Shown: positions 1 to 38,825 of the stretch, one piece after another
Position numbering within the stretch: position 1 is the stretch's first letter
How the letters are laid out: every line of letters begins with the position of its first letter
From: a virus
Direction: 5' to 3' (one strand)
DNA: 38,825 nt
UHGV virus genome: UHGV-0212475
Program-made: the position numbers and the translations under genes
Notes under the pieces: generated by a model
The model's database searches: none
Told to the model about the DNA's origin: nothing
The model's input: only the letters and a program-made list of their open reading frames with translations

Positions 1-430
1 ATAAAATTTGTCTGCTTCTGTTTGCGATTTAAAAGCTCTTGTTTGCTGGGTTCGCAAATCTTTTACCATGATAGGTTTTGGCGCTGGCATTCGTCAACCT
101 CCTTTGCGTTACATTTTAGTTTAAGAGAAAAAGTCCCTAACAATATTATAGCACAAAAACTGTTCTTTGAGAAACCAGCTTTTGTGCTGTTTATGAGGGA
201 AGAAATTCGTATTAGTGAGATTATGAAACAATGCGTGAAACGTTTGATATTGTTGAAAAGAAACCAGTTTTGAATCGTTTTTTACGAGGGAAAAAGCCTG
301 TTTTGAAACTTCGTTTTTAGAATTCTGTGTGGAAAGAAGGAATCTCCGATTGTAGCCACCAAAATATTGGCGGGGGGTGTTAAAATTTTCAGCTACCATC
401 CCCTCGCTTTTGGTCGTATCCCCCTTGAAA

Positions 431-1241: not shown

Positions 1242-1276
1242 TATTATTCCTCCTAATGTTTTTACTTTACTTCTAT

Positions 1277-1310
1277 ATTATAGCATACTTATTTGTACTT
1301 TAGGGAATAG
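1277..1310 (-). promoter_or_regulatory. putative promoter for the minus operon 1241 down to 431 (extended -10 TGcTATAAT on the minus strand)
   Basis: revcomp of 1277-1285 is TGCTATAAT; weak -35. Confidence 0.3.
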
Positions 1311-1330: not shown

Positions 1331-1471
1331 AAATGTTCTCGATGTGTTCTCGGTGTTCTCGATGTGTTCTCTGTTTAAGTAACCAGTTAGTCCAATCGAG
1401 AACGCCTGTAAACGTTGATAAACCAACATTCTTAGTCTATTTTATTATAAGTGTTCTCGATGTTCTCTGTA
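1331..1471. repeat. iteron-like cluster I: GTTCTC hexamer x6 in plus polarity, including 4 tandem (T)GTTCTCG(A/G)TG units
   Basis: exact GTTCTC at 1335, 1346, 1355, 1366, 1453, 1462; chance expectation for one hexamer in 300 bp is about 0.15. Confidence 0.8.
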
Positions 1472-1539
1472 TATTCTACTCCATTTGTAGAAAAATAATA
1501 TAATATAAAAAAACGTATATATAGAATGAGTTGAAACAA
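1472..1539. promoter_or_regulatory. AT-rich core between the inverted iteron clusters (candidate DNA-unwinding element)
   Basis: aaaaataatataatataaaaaaacgtatatatagaatg; more than 80% A+T. Confidence 0.4.
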
Positions 1540-1646
1540 TGAGGAACACAGAGACCATGTAGAACAACCCTACTCTCCCAAGGGATTCACATGTTCTCTG
1601 TACGATTTCAATCGAGAACAAACAGAGAACACATGAGGAACATTTC
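1540..1646. repeat. iteron-like cluster II: GAGAAC in opposite polarity, plus the inverted repeat CACATGTTCTCTG...CAGAGAACACATG
   Basis: GAGAAC at 1398, 1614, 1625; GTTCTC at 1593; degenerate GAGGAACA at 1542 and 1635. Confidence 0.75.
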
Positions 1647-1686: not shown

Positions 1687-1715
1687 TTGACAAATAACCT
1701 AACATGGTTTATTAT
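1687..1715 (+). promoter_or_regulatory. early promoter TTGACA-17-TATTAT
   Basis: -35 at 1687-1692, -10 at 1710-1715, A/T tract upstream. Confidence 0.6.
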
Positions 1716-2724: not shown

Positions 2725-3119
2725 AATATAGAATGAAATGCACAAAACAGACAGTAGAACCATTTTTTACAGAAGGTAAAGAATACTTCATTGCTCACAA
2801 CAATAATATTGGGTACTTTATTAAAGATGATAATAACGAAATTGTAGGAGATGGAAAAACACGTGAAGAATTATTGAATAATTTAAATGAATATTGGGAT
2901 TCGCAATTTGAACTGATTGTGATTGATGGAGATAAAGAAAACAAAGTATTACTAACACTCAATGAAAACAAAGAGTTAAGTATTAATATTAAAAAAGCAG
3001 ATGAAGCAGAAGTGATTTATATGTTAATGGCTGGCTTAATTCGTGTATGTAAAGAAGTTGAAGCAGAACAAGATTTAATGATTAAAACTATTAAAGAACT
3101 TTGGGGGAATGTAGAATGA
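2721..3119 (+). CDS. hypothetical early protein (132 aa; paralog of 2165)
   Basis: internal ATG at 2721 with GGGGAGGAATTGAA RBS preferred over the upstream start; ATGA overlap. Confidence 0.55.
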   Translation: MKYRMKCTKQTVEPFFTEGKEYFIAHNNNIGYFIKDDNNEIVGDGKTREELLNNLNEYWDSQFELIVIDGDKENKVLLTLNENKELSINIKKADEAEVIYMLMAGLIRVCKEVEAEQDLMIKTIKELWGNVE

Positions 3120-3382
3120 AAACCGCATGGTTAGTAAAAGTTGACTATAAAGTTACAACAATGAAAGGCTTCAACTCATATGAGAGCGCACTCAATTATT
3201 ACAATGAAATGGTAGATAAAGTAGAAGAACAAATTGAAGAACGTAACTATGAGAAAATAGAAACATACACTGGTGACGATAAACCACGATTAACAATGTT
3301 CATATACTGGAATGAAGATTACACATTCCGTACAACACTTGGTTTCGTATCAATCAAACAAATTGAATGGGAGGAAGAATAA
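3116..3382 (+). CDS. hypothetical protein (88 aa)
   Basis: ATG at 3116 overlaps the upstream stop (ATGA). Confidence 0.45.
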   Translation: MKTAWLVKVDYKVTTMKGFNSYESALNYYNEMVDKVEEQIEERNYEKIETYTGDDKPRLTMFIYWNEDYTFRTTLGFVSIKQIEWEEE

Positions 3383-3609
3383 TGTTAGTAAGTAAAATGT
3401 ATACAGTAGGTCAATTATTAGACACAGTGTGTTATGGTACAAAGGTTAGACTTGCGAATTATGGGGCAACTGATATTATCACACAATTTATGATGTCAGT
3501 TGATGTTGAATATAAAAAAGAGTTTGAATTGGTAGAACCATATATTGAAAATGAAGTGATGTCAGTAGCAATCACTTCTGACGGAAAACTATATATTGAA
3601 ATAATTTAA
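3382..3609 (+). CDS. hypothetical protein (75 aa)
   Basis: GGGAGGAAGAATA RBS; TAATG overlap. Confidence 0.5.
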   Translation: MLVSKMYTVGQLLDTVCYGTKVRLANYGATDIITQFMMSVDVEYKKEFELVEPYIENEVMSVAITSDGKLYIEII

Positions 3610-6376: not shown

Positions 6377-7957
6377 ATGGTAAATGAATTACAAAAAGTT
6401 GAATATGACCAACCAGTTGAATTAAGCTTTATCAGCACGCTTGAAAAGACTTTGACACCTAGCAAGCAATATATCAAAGCTTTAAAGGAGTACGAAAAGG
6501 ACCATAAGGAGTGGGAAGTAGACTTCAAAAATGGAGATGCTGCTAAGAATGCAGAACCGCTACGACCAGAACCAACATATGATGGCTTAAATGCTGAAGC
6601 ATTGGCTGTTAACATGGCTAAGGTGTTACCAGTACACGCAAGTTCAACAATAGGTTTACCAGTGGTTTATAACCATGACACAAAAATCTATGAGGTGTCA
6701 GAGGATAACTTGGAAGCTCGTTTATGGCAAAAACTCTACAATGAGTTCATGATGGTATACACACCACATTATGCGGAAAATGCAAAGGTTGCTAACCAGT
6801 TTAGAAATGCAGTCCAAAGAATGGCAAAAAATGCACTTGCTTCTGGTGCTAACCTACCATTTAATGACAAAATGGACCCAAACAAAATAGCCTTTAAAAA
6901 TGGAACATATCGTTTTAAAGAGGACACATTAAAACCAACGGTAAAAGAGGACTACCAAACAACAAGAATTGAATATGATTATATTGAAAAACCTAAACAC
7001 AATATAGTTGCTGAATGGATTGAGTATATTTTAGAAGAGGACGCAAAAACACTATTTCAATTGATTGGACGTATTTTCTACCGCAACCAAGACCCGCAAG
7101 CAATGGTATTTGCAACTGGTGAAGGTAGTAACGGTAAATCTCACGTTATGGCATTTATTGAGGACCTAGTAGGCAAATCAAACACAAGTCATGCAACACT
7201 ATCTAGCTTGTCAGGTAATAATGATAAATTCGCAAGCTCTCAATTATTTGGTAAAATGGTAAATATTGAAACGGATATGCCAGCGCAACACATTAAGCAA
7301 ACAGGTACACTGAAAACACTATCAGGTAATGATGTTATGAGTGCAGAGTATAAAGGTATTAACAAGTTCACATTCACGAACTATGCACTAATGATTTTCA
7401 CAACTAATAACATGCCTACATTTAGTGATACTTCACACGGTTTCTTGCGCCGTATTATCACATTACCATTTAATAAGACAATGGGAAGAGATAACCCAAC
7501 TGATTCAATGTGGCTGGAACGTTCAAAGAATTTCACATATGAAGAAAAGTCAGAGTTTATCAGCTACTGTCTGCAACAATATAGAAATGTACTTTTTGGG
7601 CTAAATGGAGAAACCAAGGGTCACTTCTGGACCAGTGAGAATGCAAATAAATTACGTGACGCATTTATACAAGGAAATGACACAATGGCTAACTTTATTG
7701 ATATGAATGAGATTGAGTTTGTAGAAGATGAAAACTCATTTATCCCAACAAACGAATTATTAGAAGCATATAACGATATGTTAGTTAATGAAGGACTAAT
7801 GACTGTTTCAGCTCGTAAGTTTGTGCCAGAACTACAACGCAAATCGCAGAATATTGTATTAAACAGAGTTAAAAAACGAGTTAACGGACGACCACAATAC
7901 GTTTTGACCAATATTAAATGGGCTAATAACTTTACTGAAACAGATAATATTTTTTAA
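6377..7957 (+). CDS. D5_N domain + SF3 (P4-type) replicative helicase/NTPase
   Basis: 526 aa; Walker A GEGSNGKS; D5_N-like region (LPFNDK...IAFKNGTYRF); AGGAGGAATAAAG RBS. Confidence 0.8.
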   Translation: MVNELQKVEYDQPVELSFISTLEKTLTPSKQYIKALKEYEKDHKEWEVDFKNGDAAKNAEPLRPEPTYDGLNAEALAVNMAKVLPVHASSTIGLPVVYNHDTKIYEVSEDNLEARLWQKLYNEFMMVYTPHYAENAKVANQFRNAVQRMAKNALASGANLPFNDKMDPNKIAFKNGTYRFKEDTLKPTVKEDYQTTRIEYDYIEKPKHNIVAEWIEYILEEDAKTLFQLIGRIFYRNQDPQAMVFATGEGSNGKSHVMAFIEDLVGKSNTSHATLSSLSGNNDKFASSQLFGKMVNIETDMPAQHIKQTGTLKTLSGNDVMSAEYKGINKFTFTNYALMIFTTNNMPTFSDTSHGFLRRIITLPFNKTMGRDNPTDSMWLERSKNFTYEEKSEFISYCLQQYRNVLFGLNGETKGHFWTSENANKLRDAFIQGNDTMANFIDMNEIEFVEDENSFIPTNELLEAYNDMLVNEGLMTVSARKFVPELQRKSQNIVLNRVKKRVNGRPQYVLTNIKWANNFTETDNIF

Positions 7958-12170: not shown

Positions 12171-12914
12171 ATGGAACTATTAAGACTTAGAAAAAACGGT
12201 AAAGCACCATACAAAGAAGGTGCTTTCAATGGTGAAGATAAAGCAGAAGTGAAGAAGTGGGTTGCAGAAGGTGGCAACTATGGTATTCTAACTGGTAAAA
12301 TTTCAGGTATTGCAGTGATTGATATTGACACGCATAATGGTGTTAGTGGTGCTGATAACCTCAAAGAGTTTTGCGAAAAGTATGATATTAAGTTACCAGA
12401 TACTAAAACAGTTATGACACCAAGCGGTGGTTTACACATGTATTATATTCTGCCAGCAAAATATGATGATGTACAATTCATTCAAAACCACAAGGAACTT
12501 GAAGGTGTTGACTTCCAAACACATGGACGGTACGTTGTTGGGTGGGGTTCACAGATTGAAGGTGTAAAGTATGAAGTAATTGACAATTCACCAATTACAT
12601 ACCTACCATCAAAATGGTTTGATATTTTCACAGATAAAACAATTCAAAAGCAAAACAAAAAACGTGAACGCAAATGGACTGCAAACCTATTAGGTGATAT
12701 TATCGCTGGTAGTGATGAAGGAGGACGAAACAACTGGATAACGCAAATGATTGGCAAATTGTTTGCTACAGGCTTAGAACATGAAGAAGTGTGGGTATGG
12801 TCACAATATGTAAACCAAATTGGTTGTAATCCACCACTTGATGGAGTAGAGTTAAAACGTACCTATGATTCAGTTAAAAAACGAGAAGAACGGAGAATGG
12901 CAAAAGATGAATAA
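12171..12914 (+). CDS. DNA primase: Prim-Pol N-terminal domain + PriCT-1-like C-terminus
   Basis: 247 aa; IDIDTHNG (DxD) and TPSGGLHMYY motifs; AAGGGAGGATAAATA RBS. Confidence 0.8.
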   Translation: MELLRLRKNGKAPYKEGAFNGEDKAEVKKWVAEGGNYGILTGKISGIAVIDIDTHNGVSGADNLKEFCEKYDIKLPDTKTVMTPSGGLHMYYILPAKYDDVQFIQNHKELEGVDFQTHGRYVVGWGSQIEGVKYEVIDNSPITYLPSKWFDIFTDKTIQKQNKKRERKWTANLLGDIIAGSDEGGRNNWITQMIGKLFATGLEHEEVWVWSQYVNQIGCNPPLDGVELKRTYDSVKKREERRMAKDE

Positions 12915-17833: not shown

Positions 17834-17866
17834 AATAATAGTATAAACAAATTGGAGGAATTAATA
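17831..17866 (+). repeat. 36-bp direct repeat copy 1 (TAAAATAaTAGTATAAACAAATTGGAGGAATTAATA) immediately 5' of dam
   Basis: 35/36 identical to 18593-18628. Confidence 0.85.
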
Positions 17867-18595
17867 ATGAAATATGTAGGAAGTAAAAATAGACTTAGTA
17901 AAGAGTTAGCACCAATTATTCAATCATACATTAACGATAATACAGTGGCATATATTGAACCTTTTGTAGGTGGAGCAAATATGATTGATAAAATAAAACA
18001 TCATAATAAAATTGGAAGTGACCTACACAAAGAATTAATAGCTTTGCATAAGTTCAATAGAGATTATAGTGATACTTTACCAAATACAATCACAGAAGAA
18101 CAGTATTTAAACGTTAAAAATAACAAGGAGTCATATAGTGATTATATAGTTGGTTTAGTTGGTTTTTGTGCAACGTTTGGGGCTAAATACTTTGGTGGAT
18201 ATGCTAGAGGATATAAAGCTGACGGAGTCACACCACGTGACTTACCTAATGAAGCAATAAGAAACTTACAAAAACAAGCACCAAACATTCAAGGGATTAA
18301 GTTTGAATGTAAGTCATTTACTGATTATAACCCTTCTGATTATAAAAATTGCGTGTTCTACTTAGACCCACCATATAGAAAAACATTATCATATTCAACC
18401 GGTGGTTTTCCATATGAAGAATTTGATAAATGGGCTATAGAGTTAGCAAAAAACAACACTGTATTAATAAGTGAATATGAATTACCTGAAGATAAATTTG
18501 AATGCATCTGGAGTAAAGATGTTAAAGTTGGGATAAGTGGTCAAGGAGATATAAAAAATAAAAAAAGAGTTGAAAAATTATTTAAAGTACGTTAA
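17867..18595 (+). CDS. dam: DNA N6-adenine methyltransferase, D12/Dam family
   Basis: 242 aa from the ATG at 17867; N-terminal KYVGSKNRL, EPFVGGANM and DPPY motifs. Confidence 0.85.
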   Translation: MKYVGSKNRLSKELAPIIQSYINDNTVAYIEPFVGGANMIDKIKHHNKIGSDLHKELIALHKFNRDYSDTLPNTITEEQYLNVKNNKESYSDYIVGLVGFCATFGAKYFGGYARGYKADGVTPRDLPNEAIRNLQKQAPNIQGIKFECKSFTDYNPSDYKNCVFYLDPPYRKTLSYSTGGFPYEEFDKWAIELAKNNTVLISEYELPEDKFECIWSKDVKVGISGQGDIKNKKRVEKLFKVR

Positions 18596-18629: not shown

Positions 18630-20921
18630 ATGAAGAACATTGCAGAATTTAAAAAGGCACCAGAACTAGCTGAAAAATTATTGGAGGTATTCAGCAATTT
18701 AAAAGGTAATTCACGAAGTCTTGACCCTATGAGAGCTGGTCAACATGATGTGGTTGTCATTGAATCTACCAAAAAGTTATCAGCAAAAGGAAAAGAAATG
18801 AAAGTAGTTAAAATGCGTTCATTAGAAGATGGTAGGGACGTTACAAGCTACATCATGAAGTTTCGCAAATATGACTGGGACAAATGGAAAAATGTTGAAG
18901 TTGGTGACCGTTTATTAATTGACTTGAAATTTAGCAATGGTTTTGCTACAGTCAAACCTATTAGAAGTATTTCAAAAGGTAATGAAACACCGTTCAAACC
19001 AAGCGAAGCATTAACAAAGCAAACCATTTTATTATTTGATATTGAGATTTTTAAACATGACAGTTTATTTGTATTTCGTGATTACTTTACCAAAGAATGG
19101 TTTATCATTAATAATGACCTTGACGAATTACGCAAGTTTTACCTTGAATACCGTGATTCAATGTTTATTGGGTATAACAATGCGTCATATGATAACAATG
19201 TAATGCGTGGATATTTACAAGGCAAAAACGCTTATCAGATGTCTAAGACAATTATTGAATCAGATAACAGGGGTCTAGTTTACAAGATGTTTGATAGTCA
19301 TAAAACACCGCTGTTTGGAATGGACCTGTACCAAGATAACAAAGGTTTTAGCTTAAAAGAGCATTCAGCTTTCTTAGGTATTAACATTAAAGAAACAGAA
19401 GTAGATTTTGACATGGATAGACCATTGACAGATGAAGAAAAAGAGAAAAATGTTGCATATTGCATGAATGATGTGTTAGCAACTGAAAAACGTTTTGAGC
19501 AAAACATTGGTATGTTATTGGCTAAAGCAACCATTGCTTTAATGTTTGATATGGATAAGACAGACCTATTACAAACCAATGCTAATTTAACAGCTAAGTT
19601 ACTTGGTGCAACTAAACAAGAAGTTAGACAAGACTTGACAGACCCATTAGAATTAGATAAACGATTAAATATCAATACAAAAGAGATTGCAGAAGCATAC
19701 TTGAACCATGAGTTTGAACTAAATGAAGATGGTAAATTGAACGTGTCATTAGAGTACACGGACGACGATGGATATACAATGATTTTTGGTAGTGGTGGTG
19801 TACATGGTGCTAAATCTAGTTACATTCACATTGGAATGTTCCCAATGCGTGACTGGGGTTCACTATATCCAAACACAATGGAACAATTTAATTTACTATC
19901 AAGAAATATTCCAAAGGATAAAATTCACCGCTACGGTGACTTACTAAAACAACGTATGGACGCCAAGTATTCAGGTGAAGAAGTGGCAAACATTAAAGGT
20001 GTAGAAGTGCCAACATATGTAATGATTAACGGTATCAAGTTACCATTGAACACTAAGTTTGGAGCAAGTGGTGCGCAGTTCAATGGTTTATATGACCCAA
20101 GAAACCAATTCTTAGTTTGTGCAACTGGTCAATTGATTATGACAAACATGTATGAATTAATTAAAGGTAAAGCACAATTCATTCAATCAAATACAGATGC
20201 ACATGCATATATTCCAAACAGTGAAGCAGATGATAAAGCTATTGATGAAGCATTAGATGAATTTGCTAACAAGATTGGGCTAACATTGGATAAGGATATG
20301 TTCCGTGAAATTTGGCAAAAAGATGTAAATAACTACATTGCAGTACAACCAAATGGAAAAGTAAAAGTAAAAGGCGCTATTGGCTTAACAGGTGGAATGA
20401 AAGTGTCAAAAGCTATTGTATCTAATGCATTCATCAATTATCTGGTAGCTGGTAAAGATTATAAAGAGTTTATCAATGAATGTAATGAACTAAGACAGTT
20501 TCAAATTATTACTAAAACAGGTTGGACCTTTGATAGAACGGTTGCACGTGATAGTGAAGGTAATGAGTTCAACGCACAGAAGGTTAACCGTGTGTTTGCA
20601 GTAAAAGATAAAACTAATGCAGTAGAATTATTTAAGGTCAAAGAAGGTCAATTATTAGATATTGAAGCAGATGAATTTAAGGATAACATTTCATATACAA
20701 AAGGATTGGCAAACGCACCCGAATACTACACAATCAGTAATGAAGCGATTGGTGAAGGTATTACAATTGATGAAGTTGACAAACAATACTATATTGACCA
20801 AGTAGAAGATACGCTTGAACTTTGGTTTGGTGAGAACTGGAAAGAACGTATTGAACAAGCGCATCATGAACGTAATGCACAAGGATTCAAACCAGTGGAA
20901 GTAAAAAATTATATTGATTAG
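18630..20921 (+). CDS. family-B DNA polymerase with 3'-5' exonuclease domain
   Basis: 763 aa; Exo I LLFDIEIF, motif A DWGSLYPN (DxxSLYPS), motif B K-x3-NTKFG, motif C-like QSNTDAH. Confidence 0.8.
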   Translation: MKNIAEFKKAPELAEKLLEVFSNLKGNSRSLDPMRAGQHDVVVIESTKKLSAKGKEMKVVKMRSLEDGRDVTSYIMKFRKYDWDKWKNVEVGDRLLIDLKFSNGFATVKPIRSISKGNETPFKPSEALTKQTILLFDIEIFKHDSLFVFRDYFTKEWFIINNDLDELRKFYLEYRDSMFIGYNNASYDNNVMRGYLQGKNAYQMSKTIIESDNRGLVYKMFDSHKTPLFGMDLYQDNKGFSLKEHSAFLGINIKETEVDFDMDRPLTDEEKEKNVAYCMNDVLATEKRFEQNIGMLLAKATIALMFDMDKTDLLQTNANLTAKLLGATKQEVRQDLTDPLELDKRLNINTKEIAEAYLNHEFELNEDGKLNVSLEYTDDDGYTMIFGSGGVHGAKSSYIHIGMFPMRDWGSLYPNTMEQFNLLSRNIPKDKIHRYGDLLKQRMDAKYSGEEVANIKGVEVPTYVMINGIKLPLNTKFGASGAQFNGLYDPRNQFLVCATGQLIMTNMYELIKGKAQFIQSNTDAHAYIPNSEADDKAIDEALDEFANKIGLTLDKDMFREIWQKDVNNYIAVQPNGKVKVKGAIGLTGGMKVSKAIVSNAFINYLVAGKDYKEFINECNELRQFQIITKTGWTFDRTVARDSEGNEFNAQKVNRVFAVKDKTNAVELFKVKEGQLLDIEADEFKDNISYTKGLANAPEYYTISNEAIGEGITIDEVDKQYYIDQVEDTLELWFGENWKERIEQAHHERNAQGFKPVEVKNYID

Positions 20922-23110: not shown

Positions 23111-23203
23111 GCCTACATCTCCCTATCTTATTATAATCACCGCCTTTCAGCTACTATTATAGTATAGCATTTAAATAAGGGAAATAGTGTGCTTCACAGG
23201 ATG

Positions 23204-27700: not shown

Positions 27701-27736
27701 TCTCCTTTATAATTTACTATACTAGTATTATAACAC

Positions 27737-31899: not shown

Positions 31900-32232
31900 C
31901 TAGGCTTCCTTTGAATCATCAACCCCCATGATAGTTCCTAAAATGTTTTCTAAAACGTCTACTAAGTCATCAGATTCAATTGAATTTTCAATTGCTTCAA
32001 ATGTAACTTCTGGGTGTTCAAAGATTTCAACTAATAATACAATCATTGAATCTAATAATTCTAATTGGTCAACTTCTACACCATTAGCCATGTCTTTTTG
32101 TACGTTTTCCATATCACGGTAATACTTCATAATACTACGCATTGTCTTAACTTTGACGCCTTTTTTTGTAATTTTGCGGTTTTTTCCGTCAATAATTAAG
32201 TTAATACTGAATGATTTTGTTTGTTTTGCCAT
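31900..32232 (-). CDS. tail assembly chaperone (gpG-like), acidic
   Basis: 110 aa; GGAGGAAT RBS; positioned directly upstream of tmp. Confidence 0.55.
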   Translation of the reverse strand: MAKQTKSFSINLIIDGKNRKITKKGVKVKTMRSIMKYYRDMENVQKDMANGVEVDQLELLDSMIVLLVEIFEHPEVTFEAIENSIESDDLVDVLENILGTIMGVDDSKEA

Positions 32233-32267
32233 GTTTATTCCTCCAAATAATTTTATTTACTATAGTT

Positions 32268-32302
32268 ATTATAGCATTAAAAACAGTGATTGTGGGTGTT
32301 GG
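32268..32302 (-). promoter_or_regulatory. late promoter L1: CCAACACCCACAA-N13-TGcTATAAT (minus strand)
   Basis: motif = revcomp of 32290-32302; -10 = revcomp of 32268-32276. Confidence 0.6.
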
Positions 32303-32313
32303 TGAAACCAGTT

Positions 32314-32342
32314 AAATAAAAAAGAGAGCCGTTAAGCTCTCT
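32314..32342 (-). terminator. intrinsic terminator 3' of the capsid gene (AGAGAGC-cgttaa-GCTCTCT + U-tract on the minus strand)
   Basis: stem 7 bp; A-run 32314-32322 on the plus strand = U-run on the minus transcript. Confidence 0.65.
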
Positions 32343-32405
32343 TAAGTCAATTCAATTGTTACACTTGTGTCTGCTGGCGTCACCTGTCCGACCACAGGTG
32401 GGGTG

Positions 32406-33623
32406 CTAGGGTGTAGTAATGTTGTTTATGAATTTTCCAGCCGCTGGGTCTACTACTTTAGCATCAAAACGCATGAAGATTGCTAAGTATTGACCATAAA
32501 TTTCATGGTCAATCCAACGTGCAGTAGTTTCGGCACGATTGAAGAATGTTGCAAATGCCACTGGGTCACCTAAGAATGCTACTTTAGCACCTTTTTCACC
32601 TAACATTTCATCTTTCAACACTGTTACTGGAACACCAAACAATGATTTTCCAGACTGTGCTGTAATATCAGTTTGTAATAAGTAGCGTCCTTCACCGTCT
32701 TTCATGATGTCAACTGCGTTGTAGAATGATTGAGTAACAATCAATTCCAATCCGTAAGCTGGGTCGAAACCAGTGTTAATCTGTGTTTTGATGTCATCTA
32801 ATGATGTAGCGGCTACTGCTGAAGCTGTTTTTAACAAGTTAGCTAAAACAAAGTTAGTTGTGTTTAAACCTTGGCGTTGTACTGAATCAGCAATAATTCC
32901 AGCTAAGTCGTCCGCTGAATCATCTAATGATTCTTGTGATACAACAATTTGACCACGATAAGTTGATACATTGTAAGGAACTTCTTCAAATTCAGGTTTT
33001 GCCAATGCTGGGTTTTTTGCCAACTCTTCAACTGTTACCATTTTTGCAGTAGTTGATTTCAAGATTGGGTATTTACCGCCAGATGTTTTAACTTTGATAC
33101 TGTTCACTTTATTACGTAAGTCAACAACTGTGTCTGGTAATTTACGTGCTTTAGTGATAATATCTTCTGGGATAATTGCTTCTGCGTCTGTTGATTTAAC
33201 TTGTCCGTCATCAACCGCACGTGTTTCATTAAATGATTTTACGCTAGTTGATTTTGAAGTTACGTAGTCTAAAAACGCACGTTGTTCTGTTACTGGCTCT
33301 GCTAACTCTTTACCATTGATTTTTACTTTCTCCATGTCAATATCTTCTCCTTTTGCGTTCTCAATTGAACGTTCTTCTTTTTTTGGTTCTTCCTTTGGTT
33401 CGTCTTTGACTTCGTCTTTAGGTTCGTCCTTTGGTTCTTCTTTAGGCTCTTCCTTTTTGACTTCGTCTTTAGGTGCTTCTGCTTTATCTTCTGCACGTTC
33501 TTCGTTTTCAGCTGGTGTTTCATCTTTCAAAGCTTCTAACTGTTCAATAACTTTTTTAGCTTCGTCAAGTTTACCTTCTGCCAACAAAGATTTTGCTTGC
33601 GCTTCTAACTCTGCCTTGTTCAT
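32406..33623 (-). CDS. major capsid protein, HK97 fold, with acidic Lys/Glu/Pro-rich N-terminal delta/scaffold region
   Basis: 405 aa; the central and C-terminal region (about residues 150-405) shows an HK97-family capsid pattern by eye; AAAGGAG RBS; follows the prohead protease. Confidence 0.75.
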   Translation of the reverse strand: MNKAELEAQAKSLLAEGKLDEAKKVIEQLEALKDETPAENEERAEDKAEAPKDEVKKEEPKEEPKDEPKDEVKDEPKEEPKKEERSIENAKGEDIDMEKVKINGKELAEPVTEQRAFLDYVTSKSTSVKSFNETRAVDDGQVKSTDAEAIIPEDIITKARKLPDTVVDLRNKVNSIKVKTSGGKYPILKSTTAKMVTVEELAKNPALAKPEFEEVPYNVSTYRGQIVVSQESLDDSADDLAGIIADSVQRQGLNTTNFVLANLLKTASAVAATSLDDIKTQINTGFDPAYGLELIVTQSFYNAVDIMKDGEGRYLLQTDITAQSGKSLFGVPVTVLKDEMLGEKGAKVAFLGDPVAFATFFNRAETTARWIDHEIYGQYLAIFMRFDAKVVDPAAGKFINNITTP

Positions 33624-37730: not shown

Positions 37731-37769
37731 ATGTATACCTCCTTATTTCTATTATAGCACAAATAAAAA

Positions 37770-38406: not shown

Positions 38407-38742
38407 TTATTCACCACCTTTTGCCCAACTCTTCCTATTTCTGTTTTGGTCTGATACTGATTTCCATTCTAGGTTACTTGCTTTGTTGTTGTGTCTGTTG
38501 CGGTCTTTGTGGTCTACTGTGTGTCCGTCTTGTTTACCTTTTACAAATGCTTCCGCAACTAAGATGTGAACTCGTTTACCAGTTCTTTGACCGTTCTTAT
38601 ATAGGTCTACATTCAAATATCCATTATCCTTTGCATATGGCTTTAGTGGGTTTTTAGTTGTTCCGTCATTGTATGCGACATTACCATATGATGAAATTAA
38701 GTATCCATCATATCCATTTATTTTGGACCACTGTTCACTCAT
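38407..38742 (-). CDS. NUMOD4 + HNH_3 homing-type endonuclease
   Basis: 111 aa; WSKINGYDGYLISSYGNV (NUMOD4-like) and VDHKDRNRHNNKASNLEW (HNH); GAGGTGGT RBS. Confidence 0.75.
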   Translation of the reverse strand: MSEQWSKINGYDGYLISSYGNVAYNDGTTKNPLKPYAKDNGYLNVDLYKNGQRTGKRVHILVAEAFVKGKQDGHTVDHKDRNRHNNKASNLEWKSVSDQNRNRKSWAKGGE

Positions 38743-38825
38743 TATACCACCTCAATAATTTCATAATGGCGATTCTTGCCACCTAGTTTAGTTTTAATGT
38801 CTTTGAAGTAACCTGATTTTTTACC

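What the first reader, a model, noticed from the sequence alone, without database searches (positions are those of the whole stretch)
1331..1646. Dense GTTCTC/GAGAAC iteron array in two inverted clusters flanking an AT-rich core in the divergent control region: candidate replication origin or master switch
Within about 300 bp the hexamer occurs at least 10 times exactly (about 0.15 expected), plus 3 degenerate copies. The left cluster (1335-1467) is GTTCTC on the plus strand, including a 4x tandem (T)GTTCTCG(A/G)TG array with 9-11-bp periodicity. The right cluster (1542-1642) has GAGAAC polarity and contains the inverted repeat CACATGTTCTCTG...CAGAGAACACATG. Two 9-mer families recur in both orientations: ATCGAGAAC x6 and CAGAGAAC(A) x4-5. 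Between the clusters lies a more than 80% A+T segment (1472-1539). This sits exactly between the divergently transcribed minus operon (start at 1241) and the first early promoter (1687). The architecture fits an iteron-type ori with a DNA-unwinding element, served by the D5/SF3 helicase and PrimPol encoded downstream. Alternatively it is an operator array for a regulator controlling both divergent promoters. No repressor gene is evident, which favours the ori reading.
Basis: partly seen in the sequence, partly recalled or inferred. Interest (0 to 1): 0.66.

Follow-up and report, generated by a model that had tools for sequence, protein, structure and literature searches.

The report
Phage replication origin with helicase-matched iterons
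The repeat cluster is almost certainly the replication origin of an Enterococcus phage: about 14 short binding sites around an easily melted A/T-rich core, whose sequence changes across related phages together with the DNA-binding tail of the phage's own replicative helicase.

Summary
GTTCTC occurs 14 times in the 38.8-kb window, 10 of them in 1335-1630. The 9-mer GTTCTC[GT][AG]T occurs 10 times, all there.

The window is an Efquatrovirus, a virulent E. faecalis siphophage. Region 1242-1763 is the non-coding divergent region between the late/structural operon (minus strand) and the early/replication operon (plus strand). About 14 ten-bp sites (TGTTCTYNRT) form two mirror-image sets pointing at an A/T-rich core. 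That core holds the least stable 40-bp duplex in the window.

Related phages keep this layout but replace every repeat: GTTAYGCTT, GTAACRCTT, GTTACACTT, GTGACCA, TGGGACYGAT, GGAACAY, ATGACA. Each switch coincides with a swap of the last ~90 residues of the D5/SF3-type helicase (6377-7957). The rest of that protein can stay 97-98% identical, and no other early protein covaries. About 90 GenBank records partition consistently.

The helicase models onto SaPI5 PriRep5, and its C-terminal domain is predicted to be a winged helix. I conclude this is a SaPI-Rep-type iteron origin.

A 2026 paper on phage Abitsa predicted the same in one sentence, so the kind is known. The covariation evidence and the set of specificity groups were not in the parts of that paper I read. 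A pure operator reading is not supported.

The parts
1276..1285 (-). Late-operon promoter: extended -10 TGCTATAATA with no recognisable -35
   Evidence: Exact copies occur only 4 times in the window, all on the minus strand and all intergenic. The block is invariant in 17 relatives. It flanks the origin but is not part of the repeat array.
1334..1374 (+). Left outer iteron set: four tandem 10-mers (TGTTCTCGAT, TGTTCTCGGT, TGTTCTCGAT, TGTTCTCTGT), spacing 11/9/11 bp, pointing towards the A/T core
   Evidence: Positions are conserved in relatives. Every copy is replaced by another word in phages with another helicase C-terminal domain.
1395..1404 (-). Single iteron in the opposite sense (CGTTCTCGAT on the minus strand)
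   Evidence: The same position and sense are kept in the other specificity types, for example CTAAGCATAACACC in IME_EF3 and AAAGTGTAACGC in Nonaheksakonda.
1410..1425 (.). Box AAACGTTGATAAACCA, independent of iteron type
   Evidence: Invariant in the 17 relatives aligned. Related AACGTTGATATATCAACGTT palindromes occur in the IME_EF3, AL3, Nonaheksakonda and L029 origins. Its binder is unknown.
1452..1470 (+). Left inner iteron pair (TGTTCTCGAT, TGTTCTCTGT; 9-bp spacing) abutting the A/T core
1475..1491 (.). Conserved small inverted repeat TCTAC-N7-GTAGA at the left edge of the A/T core
   Evidence: Read. Conserved in all TGTTCT-type relatives. Not conserved in the other types.
1472..1539 (.). 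A/T-rich core, the putative DNA-unwinding element; the least stable part is 1483-1523
   Evidence: 81% A+T over 1472-1539. 1483-1523 is 90% A+T and ranks first of all 40-bp windows for low duplex stability. An A/T-rich core sits at the same place in every related origin type.
1539..1567 (-). Right inner set of three degenerate iterons (TGTTCCTCAT, TGGTCTCTGT, TGTTCTACAT on the minus strand)
   Evidence: In relatives these positions carry better copies (ATGAAGAACA).
1568..1584 (.). CCCT-N9-AGGG element (CCCTACTCTCCCAAGGG); function unknown
   Evidence: Related CTTACTCTCCCAAGG is present in the IME_EF3 and Ef6.4 origins (left half) and in the distant phage IME-EFm5.
1592..1601 (+). Single iteron in the opposite sense in the right half (TGTTCTCTGT)
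1611..1642 (-). Right outer iteron set: ATCGAGAACA, ACAGAGAACA, ATGAGGAACA as read on the plus strand; 11-bp spacing; pointing towards the A/T core
   Evidence: (I1: 34-nt arms 1321-1354 / 1622-1655, 85% complementary).
1687..1715 (+). Early promoter TTGACA-17-TATTAT
   Evidence: 11 of 12 matches. Conserved in all relatives and in the other origin types.
6377..7957 (+). Initiator / replicative helicase (526 aa): D5_N, SF3-type ATPase (DUF5906) and a C-terminal winged-helix domain
   Evidence: Pfam. PDB sequence match to 7OLA, SaPI5 PriRep5, E = 7e-15. AF2 model pLDDT 84.6. Best fold match 7OLA chains A-C, E = 5e-22, TM 0.70.
7667..7954 (+). C-terminal domain (aa 431-526) of the helicase: the predicted iteron-recognition module
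   Evidence: Identity to the window's domain is 99% in phages with the same iterons. It is 58-61% in IME_EF3 and Ef6.4, whose aa 1-430 are 97-98% identical but whose iterons differ. Predicted winged helix with closest folds among RFX DNA-binding domains, TM 0.70.
12171..12914 (+). PrimPol (Prim-Pol + PriCT_1), the likely primase acting at the opened origin
18630..20921 (+). Phage DNA polymerase
   Evidence: Annotated as DNA polymerase in relatives, 95% identical to the Sigurd protein. Pfam gave no hit.

Best explanation
Region ~1334-1642 is the origin of replication of this Efquatrovirus phage. It is built like the origins of staphylococcal pathogenicity islands (SaPIs).

Proposed mechanism:
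1. Host RNA polymerase transcribes the early operon from the promoter at 1687-1715.
2. That operon encodes a 526-aa self-loading SF3/D5-type helicase (6377-7957).
3. The helicase's C-terminal winged-helix domain (aa ~431-526) recognises the 10-bp iterons TGTTCTYNRT.
4. Seven sites lie on each side of an A/T-rich core. All but one per side point towards the core, with about one helical turn between neighbours.
5. Binding assembles one helicase ring on each side. The core (1483-1523) melts and the two rings move apart.
6. The phage PrimPol (12171-12914) primes and the phage polymerase (18630-20921) extends, giving bidirectional replication.

Shown here by computation:
- The array and its significance.
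- Conservation of the layout across relatives.
- Strict co-switching of iteron sequence with the helicase C-terminal domain, and with no other early protein.
- Homology and fold match to SaPI5 PriRep5.
- The predicted winged-helix fold of the C-terminal domain.
- The low duplex stability of the core.

Inferred by analogy with SaPI Reps:
- Direct binding.
- Double-ring loading and ATP-independent melting.
- Priming by PrimPol.
- Bidirectionality.
For: (1) Clustering. 10 of 14 GTTCTC copies, and all 10 GTTCTC[GT][AG]T copies, lie in 1335-1630. This is the top k-mer cluster in the window.

(2) Conservation. In 17 congeners the sites keep position and sense, with the core (T)GTTCT invariant.

(3) Motif switching with the same layout.
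- IME_EF3: GTTAYGCTT
- AL3 and Ef6.4: GTAACRCTT
- Nonaheksakonda: GTTACACTT
- Metagenomic relatives: GTAACACTT, GGAACAY, GTGACCA, TGGGACYGAT
- IME-EFm5: ATGACA
The five named Efquatrovirus phages all infect E. faecalis, so the binder is phage-encoded.

(4) The helicase C-terminal domain covaries.
- Window versus IME_EF3 or Ef6.4: aa 1-430 are 97-98% identical, aa 431-526 are 58-61%.
- Sigurd and SHEF5, with the same iterons: 99% in aa 431-526.
- P0005 versus P0003: body 93%, C-terminal domain 47%, different iterons.
- Related C-terminal domains go with related iterons. P0003 is 79% identical to the window's domain, with TGGGACCGAT versus TGTTCTCGAT. EF3, AL3 and Nona share GTWAYRCTT.

(5) Database-wide partition.
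- C-terminal-domain classes by tblastn: 76, 22, 4 and 3 records.
- The Nonaheksakonda-type origin core hits exactly the 3 records of its class.
- The AL3-type core hits the 22 records of its class, plus one 13%-coverage hit.
- The window-type core hits 61 records. None of the 60 listed belongs to another class.

(6) Exclusion of other proteins. No other early-region protein (window ORFs up to 12109, the span covered in all five genomes) has the required pattern across Sigurd, SHEF5, Ef6.4, IME_EF3 and Nonaheksakonda. This includes the 72-aa protein that IME_EF3 annotates as a transcriptional regulator. It is 97% identical between the window and IME_EF3 but 44% to Sigurd.

(7) Homology to a known initiator.
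- Only PDB sequence relative: SaPI5 PriRep5, 7OLA.
- Best fold match is the same protein, and alignments are longest for the chains that include the C-terminal domain.
- SaPI Reps bind iterons through a C-terminal winged helix. Their origins have 6-12 iterons around an A/T-rich centre, with opposite orientation on the two sides (PMC9371898).

(8) The C-terminal domain modelled alone has winged-helix topology. Its top matches are RFX DNA-binding domains (TM 0.70), then PadR, Orc1/Cdc6 WHD on origin DNA, RTP and RepE.

(9) 1483-1523 is the least stable 40-mer in the window.

(10) Independent in-silico proposal of the same kind for the congener Abitsa (PMC13517437).
Against: - There is no experimental evidence for replication initiation here or in any Efquatrovirus.
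- Covariation demonstrates a specific protein-DNA partnership, not origin firing.
- Unlike SaPIs, the array is not immediately downstream of the helicase gene. It lies 4.7 kb upstream, between two promoters, so a regulatory role of the same binding is conceivable.
- At 60 and 80 bp the A/T core is only the 4th and 8th least stable segment.
- The C-terminal domain fold matches are weak (no Foldseek hit at E <= 0.001).
- GC skew supports the location but is confounded with transcription direction.
- Within TGTTCT-type genomes, positions 7-9 of the iteron vary (TCGA, TCTG, TTCA, TCGG), so the true recognition determinants are not defined.
Confidence: 0.8

Rival explanations
1. The array binds the helicase C-terminal domain, but only for regulation. 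One version is autoregulation of the early operon or replication-independent activation of the late promoter. The true origin would lie elsewhere.
For: The array lies between the early promoter (1687-1715) and the -35-less late promoter (1276-1285). In SaPIs the origin lies just downstream of rep, which is not the case here.
Against: - No other iteron-like cluster exists in the window. The 90-bp gap downstream of the helicase gene has no repeats.
- The inverted two-set layout around the least stable duplex is origin-like.
- In the relative L029 the helicase gene directly adjoins the array.
- The sites end 28 bp and 45 bp from the expected -35 positions, so there is no promoter occlusion.
Confidence: 0.07
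2. The array is an operator set for a dedicated phage transcription factor (repressor or late activator) that controls both divergent promoters: a master early/late switch.
For: Position between divergent early and late promoters. Helically phased direct repeats upstream of a -35-less promoter resemble activator sites such as TP901-1 Alt (from memory).
Against: - Pfam found no HTH or regulator domain in 40 early proteins.
- No early protein other than the helicase C-terminal domain switches with the repeats.
- The other exact late promoters TGCTATAATA (144-153, 32267-32276, 37750-37759) have no such sites, and the 9-mer is absent outside 1335-1630.
Confidence: 0.05
3. The repeats are binding sites for a host protein, for example an OmpR/WalR-type response regulator that binds hexamer direct repeats at 11-bp spacing.
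For: TGTTCT-N5-TGTTCT resembles the direct-repeat layout of OmpR-family sites. WalR TGTWAH-N5-TGTWAH is recalled from memory.
Against: Phages infecting the same species (E. faecalis) carry at least four unrelated or altered words at the same positions. Each is matched to a phage protein domain.
Confidence: 0.02
4. The array is a packaging signal, that is, terminase recognition sites next to cos.
For: It lies about 1 kb from the HNH/terminase end of the late operon. Several GenBank records start near it.
Against: - Records that appear to be opened at the physical ends start about 970 bp away from the array.
- Cohesive ends were mapped experimentally in IME-EF4 (PMC4445525).
- TerS does not covary with the repeats: 75% to Sigurd (same iterons) versus 74-82% to phages with other iterons.
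Confidence: 0.01

Closest known systems
SaPI replicons of Staphylococcus aureus: Rep / PriRep self-loading helicase plus iteron ori (Ubeda 2007; Qiao 2022, PMC9371898)
   Same: - The initiator is an SF3-like hexameric helicase with a C-terminal winged-helix domain. It is the only PDB sequence relative and the best fold match.
- The origin is made of short repeats (5-6 bp in SaPIs) in two sets around an A/T-rich centre, with opposite orientation on the two sides.
- Specificity is cognate between Rep and its own iterons.
   Different: - The host element is a virulent 40-kb siphophage, not a chromosomal island.
- The origin is not directly downstream of rep but 4.7 kb upstream, in the divergent early/late promoter region.
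- There are more sites (~14) with a 10-bp unit.
- Sequence identity to PriRep5 is only ~19% and limited to the helicase core.
- PrimPol is a separate gene.
Predicted origin of Efquatrovirus phage Abitsa (Viruses 2026;18:842, PMC13517437)
   Same: Same genus and same idea. [quoted passage not shown]
   Different: That proposal is a one-sentence in-silico statement for one phage. The passages my term searches returned contain no comparative test, no identification of the recognition domain, and no specificity groups.
Satellite phage P4: alpha protein with ori and crr
   Same: D5/P4-family helicase with a C-terminal winged-helix origin-binding domain that recognises short iterons. The octamer TGTTCACC is recalled from memory and was not verified in the paper library.
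   Different: - P4 alpha carries a fused primase domain. Here Pfam finds only D5_N and DUF5906.
- P4 needs a second cis site, crr. Here there is a single cluster.
Polyomavirus (SV40) and papillomavirus origins
   Same: An SF3 helicase initiator loads as two rings on inverted short repeats next to an A/T tract. In SV40 the origin sits in the divergent early/late control region (textbook knowledge).
   Different: The DNA-binding domain is unrelated (the origin-binding domain precedes the helicase there). Those are eukaryotic viruses, and there is no detectable sequence relation beyond the SF3 core.
Iteron origins of plasmids (RepA, pi, RepE) and lambda O/ori
   Same: Phased short direct repeats bound by a winged-helix initiator next to an A/T-rich unwinding element.
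   Different: Those initiators are not helicases and recruit host DnaB. Here the initiator is itself the helicase, and the repeats form two inverted sets.

Membership tests
SaPI-Rep-type replicon (self-loading helicase + iteron origin) | Initiator with an SF3/D5-type AAA+ helicase core homologous to SaPI Rep/PriRep | tested here: met
   Pfam D5_N and DUF5906. phmmer against PDB gives only 7OLA, E = 7e-15. Foldseek top hits are 7OLA/7OM0, E = 5e-22, TM 0.70.
SaPI-Rep-type replicon (self-loading helicase + iteron origin) | C-terminal winged-helix domain that reads the iterons | tested here: met
   The AF2 C-terminal domain has helix-strand-strand-helix-helix-hairpin topology. Its best folds are winged-helix DNA-binding domains: RFX TM 0.70, then PadR, Orc1/Cdc6 WHD, RTP. 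This is a prediction only, and the E-values are weak (4e-3 at best).
SaPI-Rep-type replicon (self-loading helicase + iteron origin) | 6-12 or more short iterons in two sets around an A/T-rich centre, at least 2 per side in opposite orientation | tested here: met
   Seven sites on each side of 1472-1539. Orientation is + + + + - + + | AT | - - - + - - -. The core is the least stable 40-mer.
SaPI-Rep-type replicon (self-loading helicase + iteron origin) | Cognate specificity between the initiator C-terminal domain and its own iterons | tested here: met
   Co-switching in at least 8 lineages and a consistent partition of ~90 GenBank records. This is computational covariation, not binding.
SaPI-Rep-type replicon (self-loading helicase + iteron origin) | Origin located immediately downstream of the rep ORF | tested here: not met
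   The array lies 4.7 kb upstream of the gene, in the divergent promoter region. In relative L029 the array is immediately upstream of rep.
SaPI-Rep-type replicon (self-loading helicase + iteron origin) | Element is a phage-inducible chromosomal island (integrase, Stl-type repressor, helper dependence) | tested here: not met
   The window is a virulent siphophage genome with its own structural, lysis and polymerase genes. Only the replicon type is shared, so it is not a SaPI.
SaPI-Rep-type replicon (self-loading helicase + iteron origin) | Initiator binds and melts the origin in vitro, and the fragment supports Rep-dependent replication | not testable with these tools
   Needs EMSA or footprinting, permanganate probing, and a plasmid replication assay.
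P4 alpha / ori-crr system | Primase domain fused to the helicase, and a second cis-acting repeat region (crr) | tested here: not met
   No primase domain was detected in the 526-aa protein, and PrimPol is a separate gene. There is a single repeat cluster in the window.
Operator array of a phage transcription regulator (CI/Cro-type or late activator) | A dedicated DNA-binding regulator gene, with sites overlapping or adjoining every regulated promoter | tested here: not met
   No regulator domain in 40 early proteins. No covarying protein other than the helicase. Sites are absent from the other late promoters.
Plasmid-type iteron origin (RepA/pi/RepE with host DnaA/DnaB) | A non-helicase WH1-WH2 initiator | tested here: not met
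   The only covarying protein is itself an SF3 helicase. DnaA boxes were not searched for.

The most novel reading that the evidence does not exclude
The origin may double as the early-to-late switch. It sits between the strong early promoter and a -35-less late promoter. Loading of two helicase rings, or passage of the first forks, could shut down or re-direct early transcription and open the late promoter. That would couple late gene expression to replication, as large T antigen does at the SV40 control region.

A second non-excluded reading concerns the at least 8 interchangeable iteron / C-terminal-domain cassettes. They may be maintained by selection as replicon 'incompatibility' groups that decide the outcome of co-infection, or that evade origin-titrating or origin-hijacking elements.
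Probability: 0.2. Interest if true: 0.7.

Novelty: new member of a known kind. Interest (0 to 1): 0.48.

Why it matters
Efquatrovirus phages are widely isolated as candidates for therapy against E. faecalis, yet their origin and initiator have not been tested experimentally.

This analysis pins the origin to ~310 bp and names the protein domain that most likely reads it. It also shows that the genus is split into several origin/initiator specificity groups that recombine as matched pairs even though the two parts lie 5-6 kb apart.

That gives:
- A ready-made natural data set for working out how a winged-helix domain reads 10-bp iterons.
- Predictions about competition or complementation between phages in cocktails.
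- A simple route to origin-based tools, such as origin plasmids that titrate the initiator, or engineered replicons.

It does not reveal a new kind of mechanism.

Tried and rejected
- Rfam at gathering threshold over the whole window: no RNA family. ARAGORN on the window and on type-B relatives whose origin contains a GGTTCAATCC-like string: no tRNA.
- Pfam on 40 early proteins and PHROGs on 10 of them, looking for a repressor or activator: nothing beyond the replication proteins.
- cos reading: the IME-EF4 cohesive-end nonamer and its flanks are not in the window. The cos reading was rejected on position and on lack of TerS covariation instead.
- The search for related loci in IMG/VR with the first early protein gave only 2 loci. 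One of them (L002, an IME_EF3-type genome) proved useful.
- Candidate internal promoters (TTGATA-17-TATTTT at 1415-1443; TATACA-18-TATAAT on the minus strand at 1473-1444) were not pursued. Their -10 parts are not conserved in relatives.
- Two small proteins (3101-3382, 3367-3609) looked like possible covarying partners after three genomes. They were excluded with SHEF5 and Ef6.4.
- The P4 iteron sequence could not be verified in the paper library. It is used only as a recollection.
- The SaPI replicon paper PMC1964853 is not held. SaPI features are taken from PMC9371898.
Full report
WHAT THE WINDOW IS

The window is 88-92% identical at the nucleotide level to Enterococcus faecalis siphophages of the genus Efquatrovirus (Ef6.4, G01, Sigurd, EfaCPT1).

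By synteny with the well-annotated phage Sigurd, the minus-strand genes left of 1241 open the late operon. They encode a membrane protein, a small protein and an HNH endonuclease, followed around the genome ends by terminase, head, tail and lysis genes. The plus-strand genes from 1764 are the early/replication operon.

Region 1242-1763 is therefore the non-coding divergent region between late and early transcription.

Yes.
- GTTCTC/GAGAAC occurs 14 times in 38.8 kb, which is ordinary in total (shuffles give 11.7). But 10 copies fall within 1335-1630.
- The 9-mer GTTCTC[GT][AG]T occurs 10 times and only there.
- A scan of all strand-collapsed hexamers ranks this cluster first in the window.

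With degenerate copies there are 14 ten-bp sites of consensus TGTTCTYNRT.
- Seven lie left of the A/T-rich segment 1472-1539 and seven lie right of it.
- Neighbours are spaced 9-11 bp apart.
- Orientation is + + + + - + + | AT | - - - + - - -. All but one site per side point at the core.

The core is 81% A+T. Its centre, 1483-1523, is the least stable 40-bp duplex of the whole window.

The polarity of each cluster is not perfectly uniform. Otherwise the description holds.

COMPARATIVE ANATOMY

The intergenic region is found in 123 phage records. An alignment with 17 congeners shows:
- The sites keep position and sense.
- (T)GTTCT is invariant, while the next three or four bases vary even within one genome.

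Other invariant blocks are:
- The late promoter, an extended -10 TGCTATAATA without a -35.
- The early promoter TTGACA-17-TAKTAT.
- The box AAACGTTGATAAACCA.
- A small inverted repeat TCTAC-N7-GTAGA at the edge of the A/T core.

THE DECISIVE RESULT: CONCERTED MOTIF SWITCHING

Some relatives keep the whole layout: late promoter, tandem set, single inverted site, inner pair, A/T core, mirror-image right half, early promoter. Yet every repeat is a different word.

| Phage or contig | Iteron word |
|---|---|
| Window, Sigurd, SHEF5 and others | TGTTCTY |
| IME_EF3 | GTTAYGCTT |
| AL3, Ef6.4 | GTAACRCTT |
| Nonaheksakonda | GTTACACTT |
| Metagenomic L028 (P0005) | GTAACACTT |
| Metagenomic L029 (P0012) | GGAACAY |
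| Metagenomic L030 (P0004) | GTGACCA |
| Metagenomic L031 (P0003) | TGGGACYGAT |
| IME-EFm5 (E. faecium phage) | ATGACA |

Several of these phages infect the same species. A host factor is therefore unlikely and a phage-encoded reader is implied.

WHICH PROTEIN COVARIES?

I compared the window's early-region proteins with five genomes:
- Two with the same iterons: Sigurd and SHEF5.
- Three with other iterons: Ef6.4, IME_EF3 and Nonaheksakonda.

Only one item fits the pattern: the C-terminal ~95 residues of the 526-aa D5/SF3 helicase encoded at 6377-7957.

| Compared with window | aa 1-430 | aa 431-526 | Iterons |
|---|---|---|---|
| Sigurd | 98% | 99% | same |
| SHEF5 | 97% | 99% | same |
| Ef6.4 | 98% | 61% | different |
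| IME_EF3 | 97% | 58% | different |

Further points:
- Two metagenomic proteins (P0005 and P0003) share a 93% identical body but 47% identical C-terminal domains, and their iterons differ.
- Related C-terminal domains go with related words. P0003's domain is 79% identical to the window's, with TGGGACCGAT versus TGTTCTCGAT. The IME_EF3, AL3 and Nonaheksakonda domains go with GTWAYRCTT.
- The 72-aa protein that IME_EF3 annotates as a transcriptional regulator is anti-correlated. It is 97% identical to IME_EF3 but 44% to Sigurd.
- TerS does not covary.

DATABASE-WIDE CHECK

tblastn with the IME_EF3 C-terminal domain splits 105 records into four classes: 76, 22, 4 and 3 records. Reciprocal blastn with the origin cores gives:
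- Nonaheksakonda-type core: exactly the 3 records of its class.
- AL3-type core: the 22 records of its class, plus one 13%-coverage hit.
- IME_EF3 core: only members of the two related classes.
- Window-type core: 61 records, of which none of the 60 listed belongs to another class.

I saw no exception.

Ef6.4 and G01 are the window's closest relatives overall, yet they carry the other origin type together with the other C-terminal domain. The two parts lie 5-6 kb apart. Matched pairs are therefore maintained through recombination.

WHAT THE PROTEIN IS

- Pfam finds D5_N and the SF3 P-loop domain DUF5906.
- The only PDB sequence relative is SaPI5 PriRep5, 7OLA.
- An AlphaFold2 model (pLDDT 84.6) has 7OLA as best fold match (E = 5e-22, TM 0.70). 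Alignments are longest for the chains in which the C-terminal domain is built. ASFV PrimPol, mpox E5 and vaccinia D5 follow.
- The C-terminal domain modelled alone has a winged-helix topology. Its best matches are RFX DNA-binding domains (TM 0.70), then PadR, Orc1/Cdc6 WHD on origin DNA, RTP and RepE. All are at weak E-values.

According to Qiao et al. 2022 (PMC9371898):
- SaPI Reps are self-loading helicases whose C-terminal winged helix recognises penta- or hexanucleotide iterons.
- 6-12 iterons surround an A/T-rich centre, with at least two per side in opposite orientation.
- Two hexamers are thought to load, one on each side.

The present array matches this description point by point, except for its position relative to the gene.

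MECHANISM

Most likely (confidence 0.8), 1334-1642 is the phage origin.
1. The early-expressed helicase binds the iterons through its C-terminal domain.
2. It assembles on both sides of the core and melts 1483-1523.
3. The two rings translocate outward.
4. PrimPol (12171-12914) and the phage polymerase (18630-20921) complete the replisome.

Binding, melting and bidirectionality are inferred by analogy. The partnership itself is shown by covariation.

RIVALS

- Pure operator array: disfavoured. There is no regulator domain in 40 early proteins and no other covarying protein. The sites stop 28 and 45 bp short of the -35 positions. The other late promoters with the same TGCTATAATA (144-153, 32267-32276, 37750-37759) have no such sites.
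- Helicase binds here only for regulation, with the origin elsewhere: no second repeat cluster exists.
- Host-factor sites: contradicted by the motif switching.
- Packaging sites: contradicted by the distance to the genome ends and by TerS.
- A secondary regulatory effect of helicase loading on the two flanking promoters remains open. It is the most novel reading not excluded.

NOVELTY

A paper of August 2026 on the congener Abitsa (PMC13517437) makes three statements in one sentence and one figure:
- Its helicase is homologous to PriRep5.
- GC skew suggests a single bidirectional origin near a genome end.

The kind of element, and its presence in this genus, are therefore already proposed in silico. 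My term searches of that paper returned nothing on three points, which are added here:
- The comparative proof of a specific partnership.
- The assignment of recognition to the last ~90 residues.
- The existence of at least eight interchangeable specificity pairs.

I file it as a new member of a known kind. It is not a SaPI, because it is a virulent phage and the origin is not downstream of rep. It is not a P4-type system either, because there is no fused primase and no crr.

Noticed in passing
window, genome-wide (e.g. 172-178, 261-267, 32305-32311; 26 sites): The heptamer CTGGTTT occurs 26 times against 7.1 +/- 2.5 expected. 22 of the 26 copies are on the minus strand, in both the early (+) and late (-) gene blocks. 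Variants AAACCAGT / ACTGGTTT flank the iteron arrays in every origin type. A strand-biased, over-represented word could be Chi-like or a priming signal.
   Followed up: partly
window 144-153, 1276-1285, 32267-32276, 37750-37759 (minus strand); near-copies at 27726-27735 and 23155-23164: Exact TGCTATAATA (extended -10, no -35) marks intergenic sites upstream of late genes. These are apparently a family of late promoters. How their timing is set is unknown, since no late activator gene was recognised.
   Followed up: partly
window 1410-1425; L002 ~1575-1597; L025; L029 6425-6445: The box AAACGTTGATA(A/T)A, a full palindrome AACGTTGATATATCAACGTT in some relatives, is conserved in all origin types whatever the iteron word. 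It may be a site for a second, conserved factor.
   Followed up: no
window 1568-1584; L002 ~1418-1436; L021 37399-37415: The element CTTACTCTCCCAAGG (CCTT-N8-AAGG; type-B relatives have CCTTGTGGCTCTAAGG) recurs in the origin regions. It sits on different sides of the A/T core in different phages and is present even in the distant E. faecium phage IME-EFm5.
   Followed up: no
window 31900-33623: Only 173 bp separate the major capsid gene (32406-33623) from the tape-measure chaperone gene (31900-32232). Nonaheksakonda and Sigurd have ~2.5 kb there, with head-tail connector, adaptor and major tail genes. tblastn finds none of these anywhere in the window. The cause is either a deletion or assembly gap, or a defective genome.
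   Followed up: partly
window 1510-1600 versus relatives: The right inner part of the origin exists in two versions among TGTTCT-type phages. Type A is found in the window, RioGrande, EFap02, MF-DL, Alamo and SHEF4. Type B is found in Sigurd and most others, and carries a perfect palindrome TGTTCTTCA-A-TGAAGAACA.
   Followed up: no
window 17852-18595: A D12-class (Dam-like) adenine methyltransferase is present in the window, IME_EF3 and IME-EFm5 but absent from Sigurd and Nonaheksakonda. I saw no GATC when reading the array sequence.
   Followed up: no
L032 1-690 (metagenomic relative of the helicase, P0011): Here a ~600-bp non-coding stretch with two different repeat families (CCTCCCTTGG-like and ATAACC) around a long A/T tract lies downstream of the conserved early promoter and just upstream of the helicase gene. 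This is a differently organised origin region.
   Followed up: no
window 1-340 and 38407-38825: The IME-EF4 cohesive-end nonamer TCATCACCG and its flanks are absent. By synteny the cos site should lie near the window ends, so the window may be opened close to, or lack, the cos region.
   Followed up: partly
window 18630-20921: The 763-aa protein annotated as DNA polymerase in relatives gave no Pfam hit at E <= 0.01.
   Followed up: no
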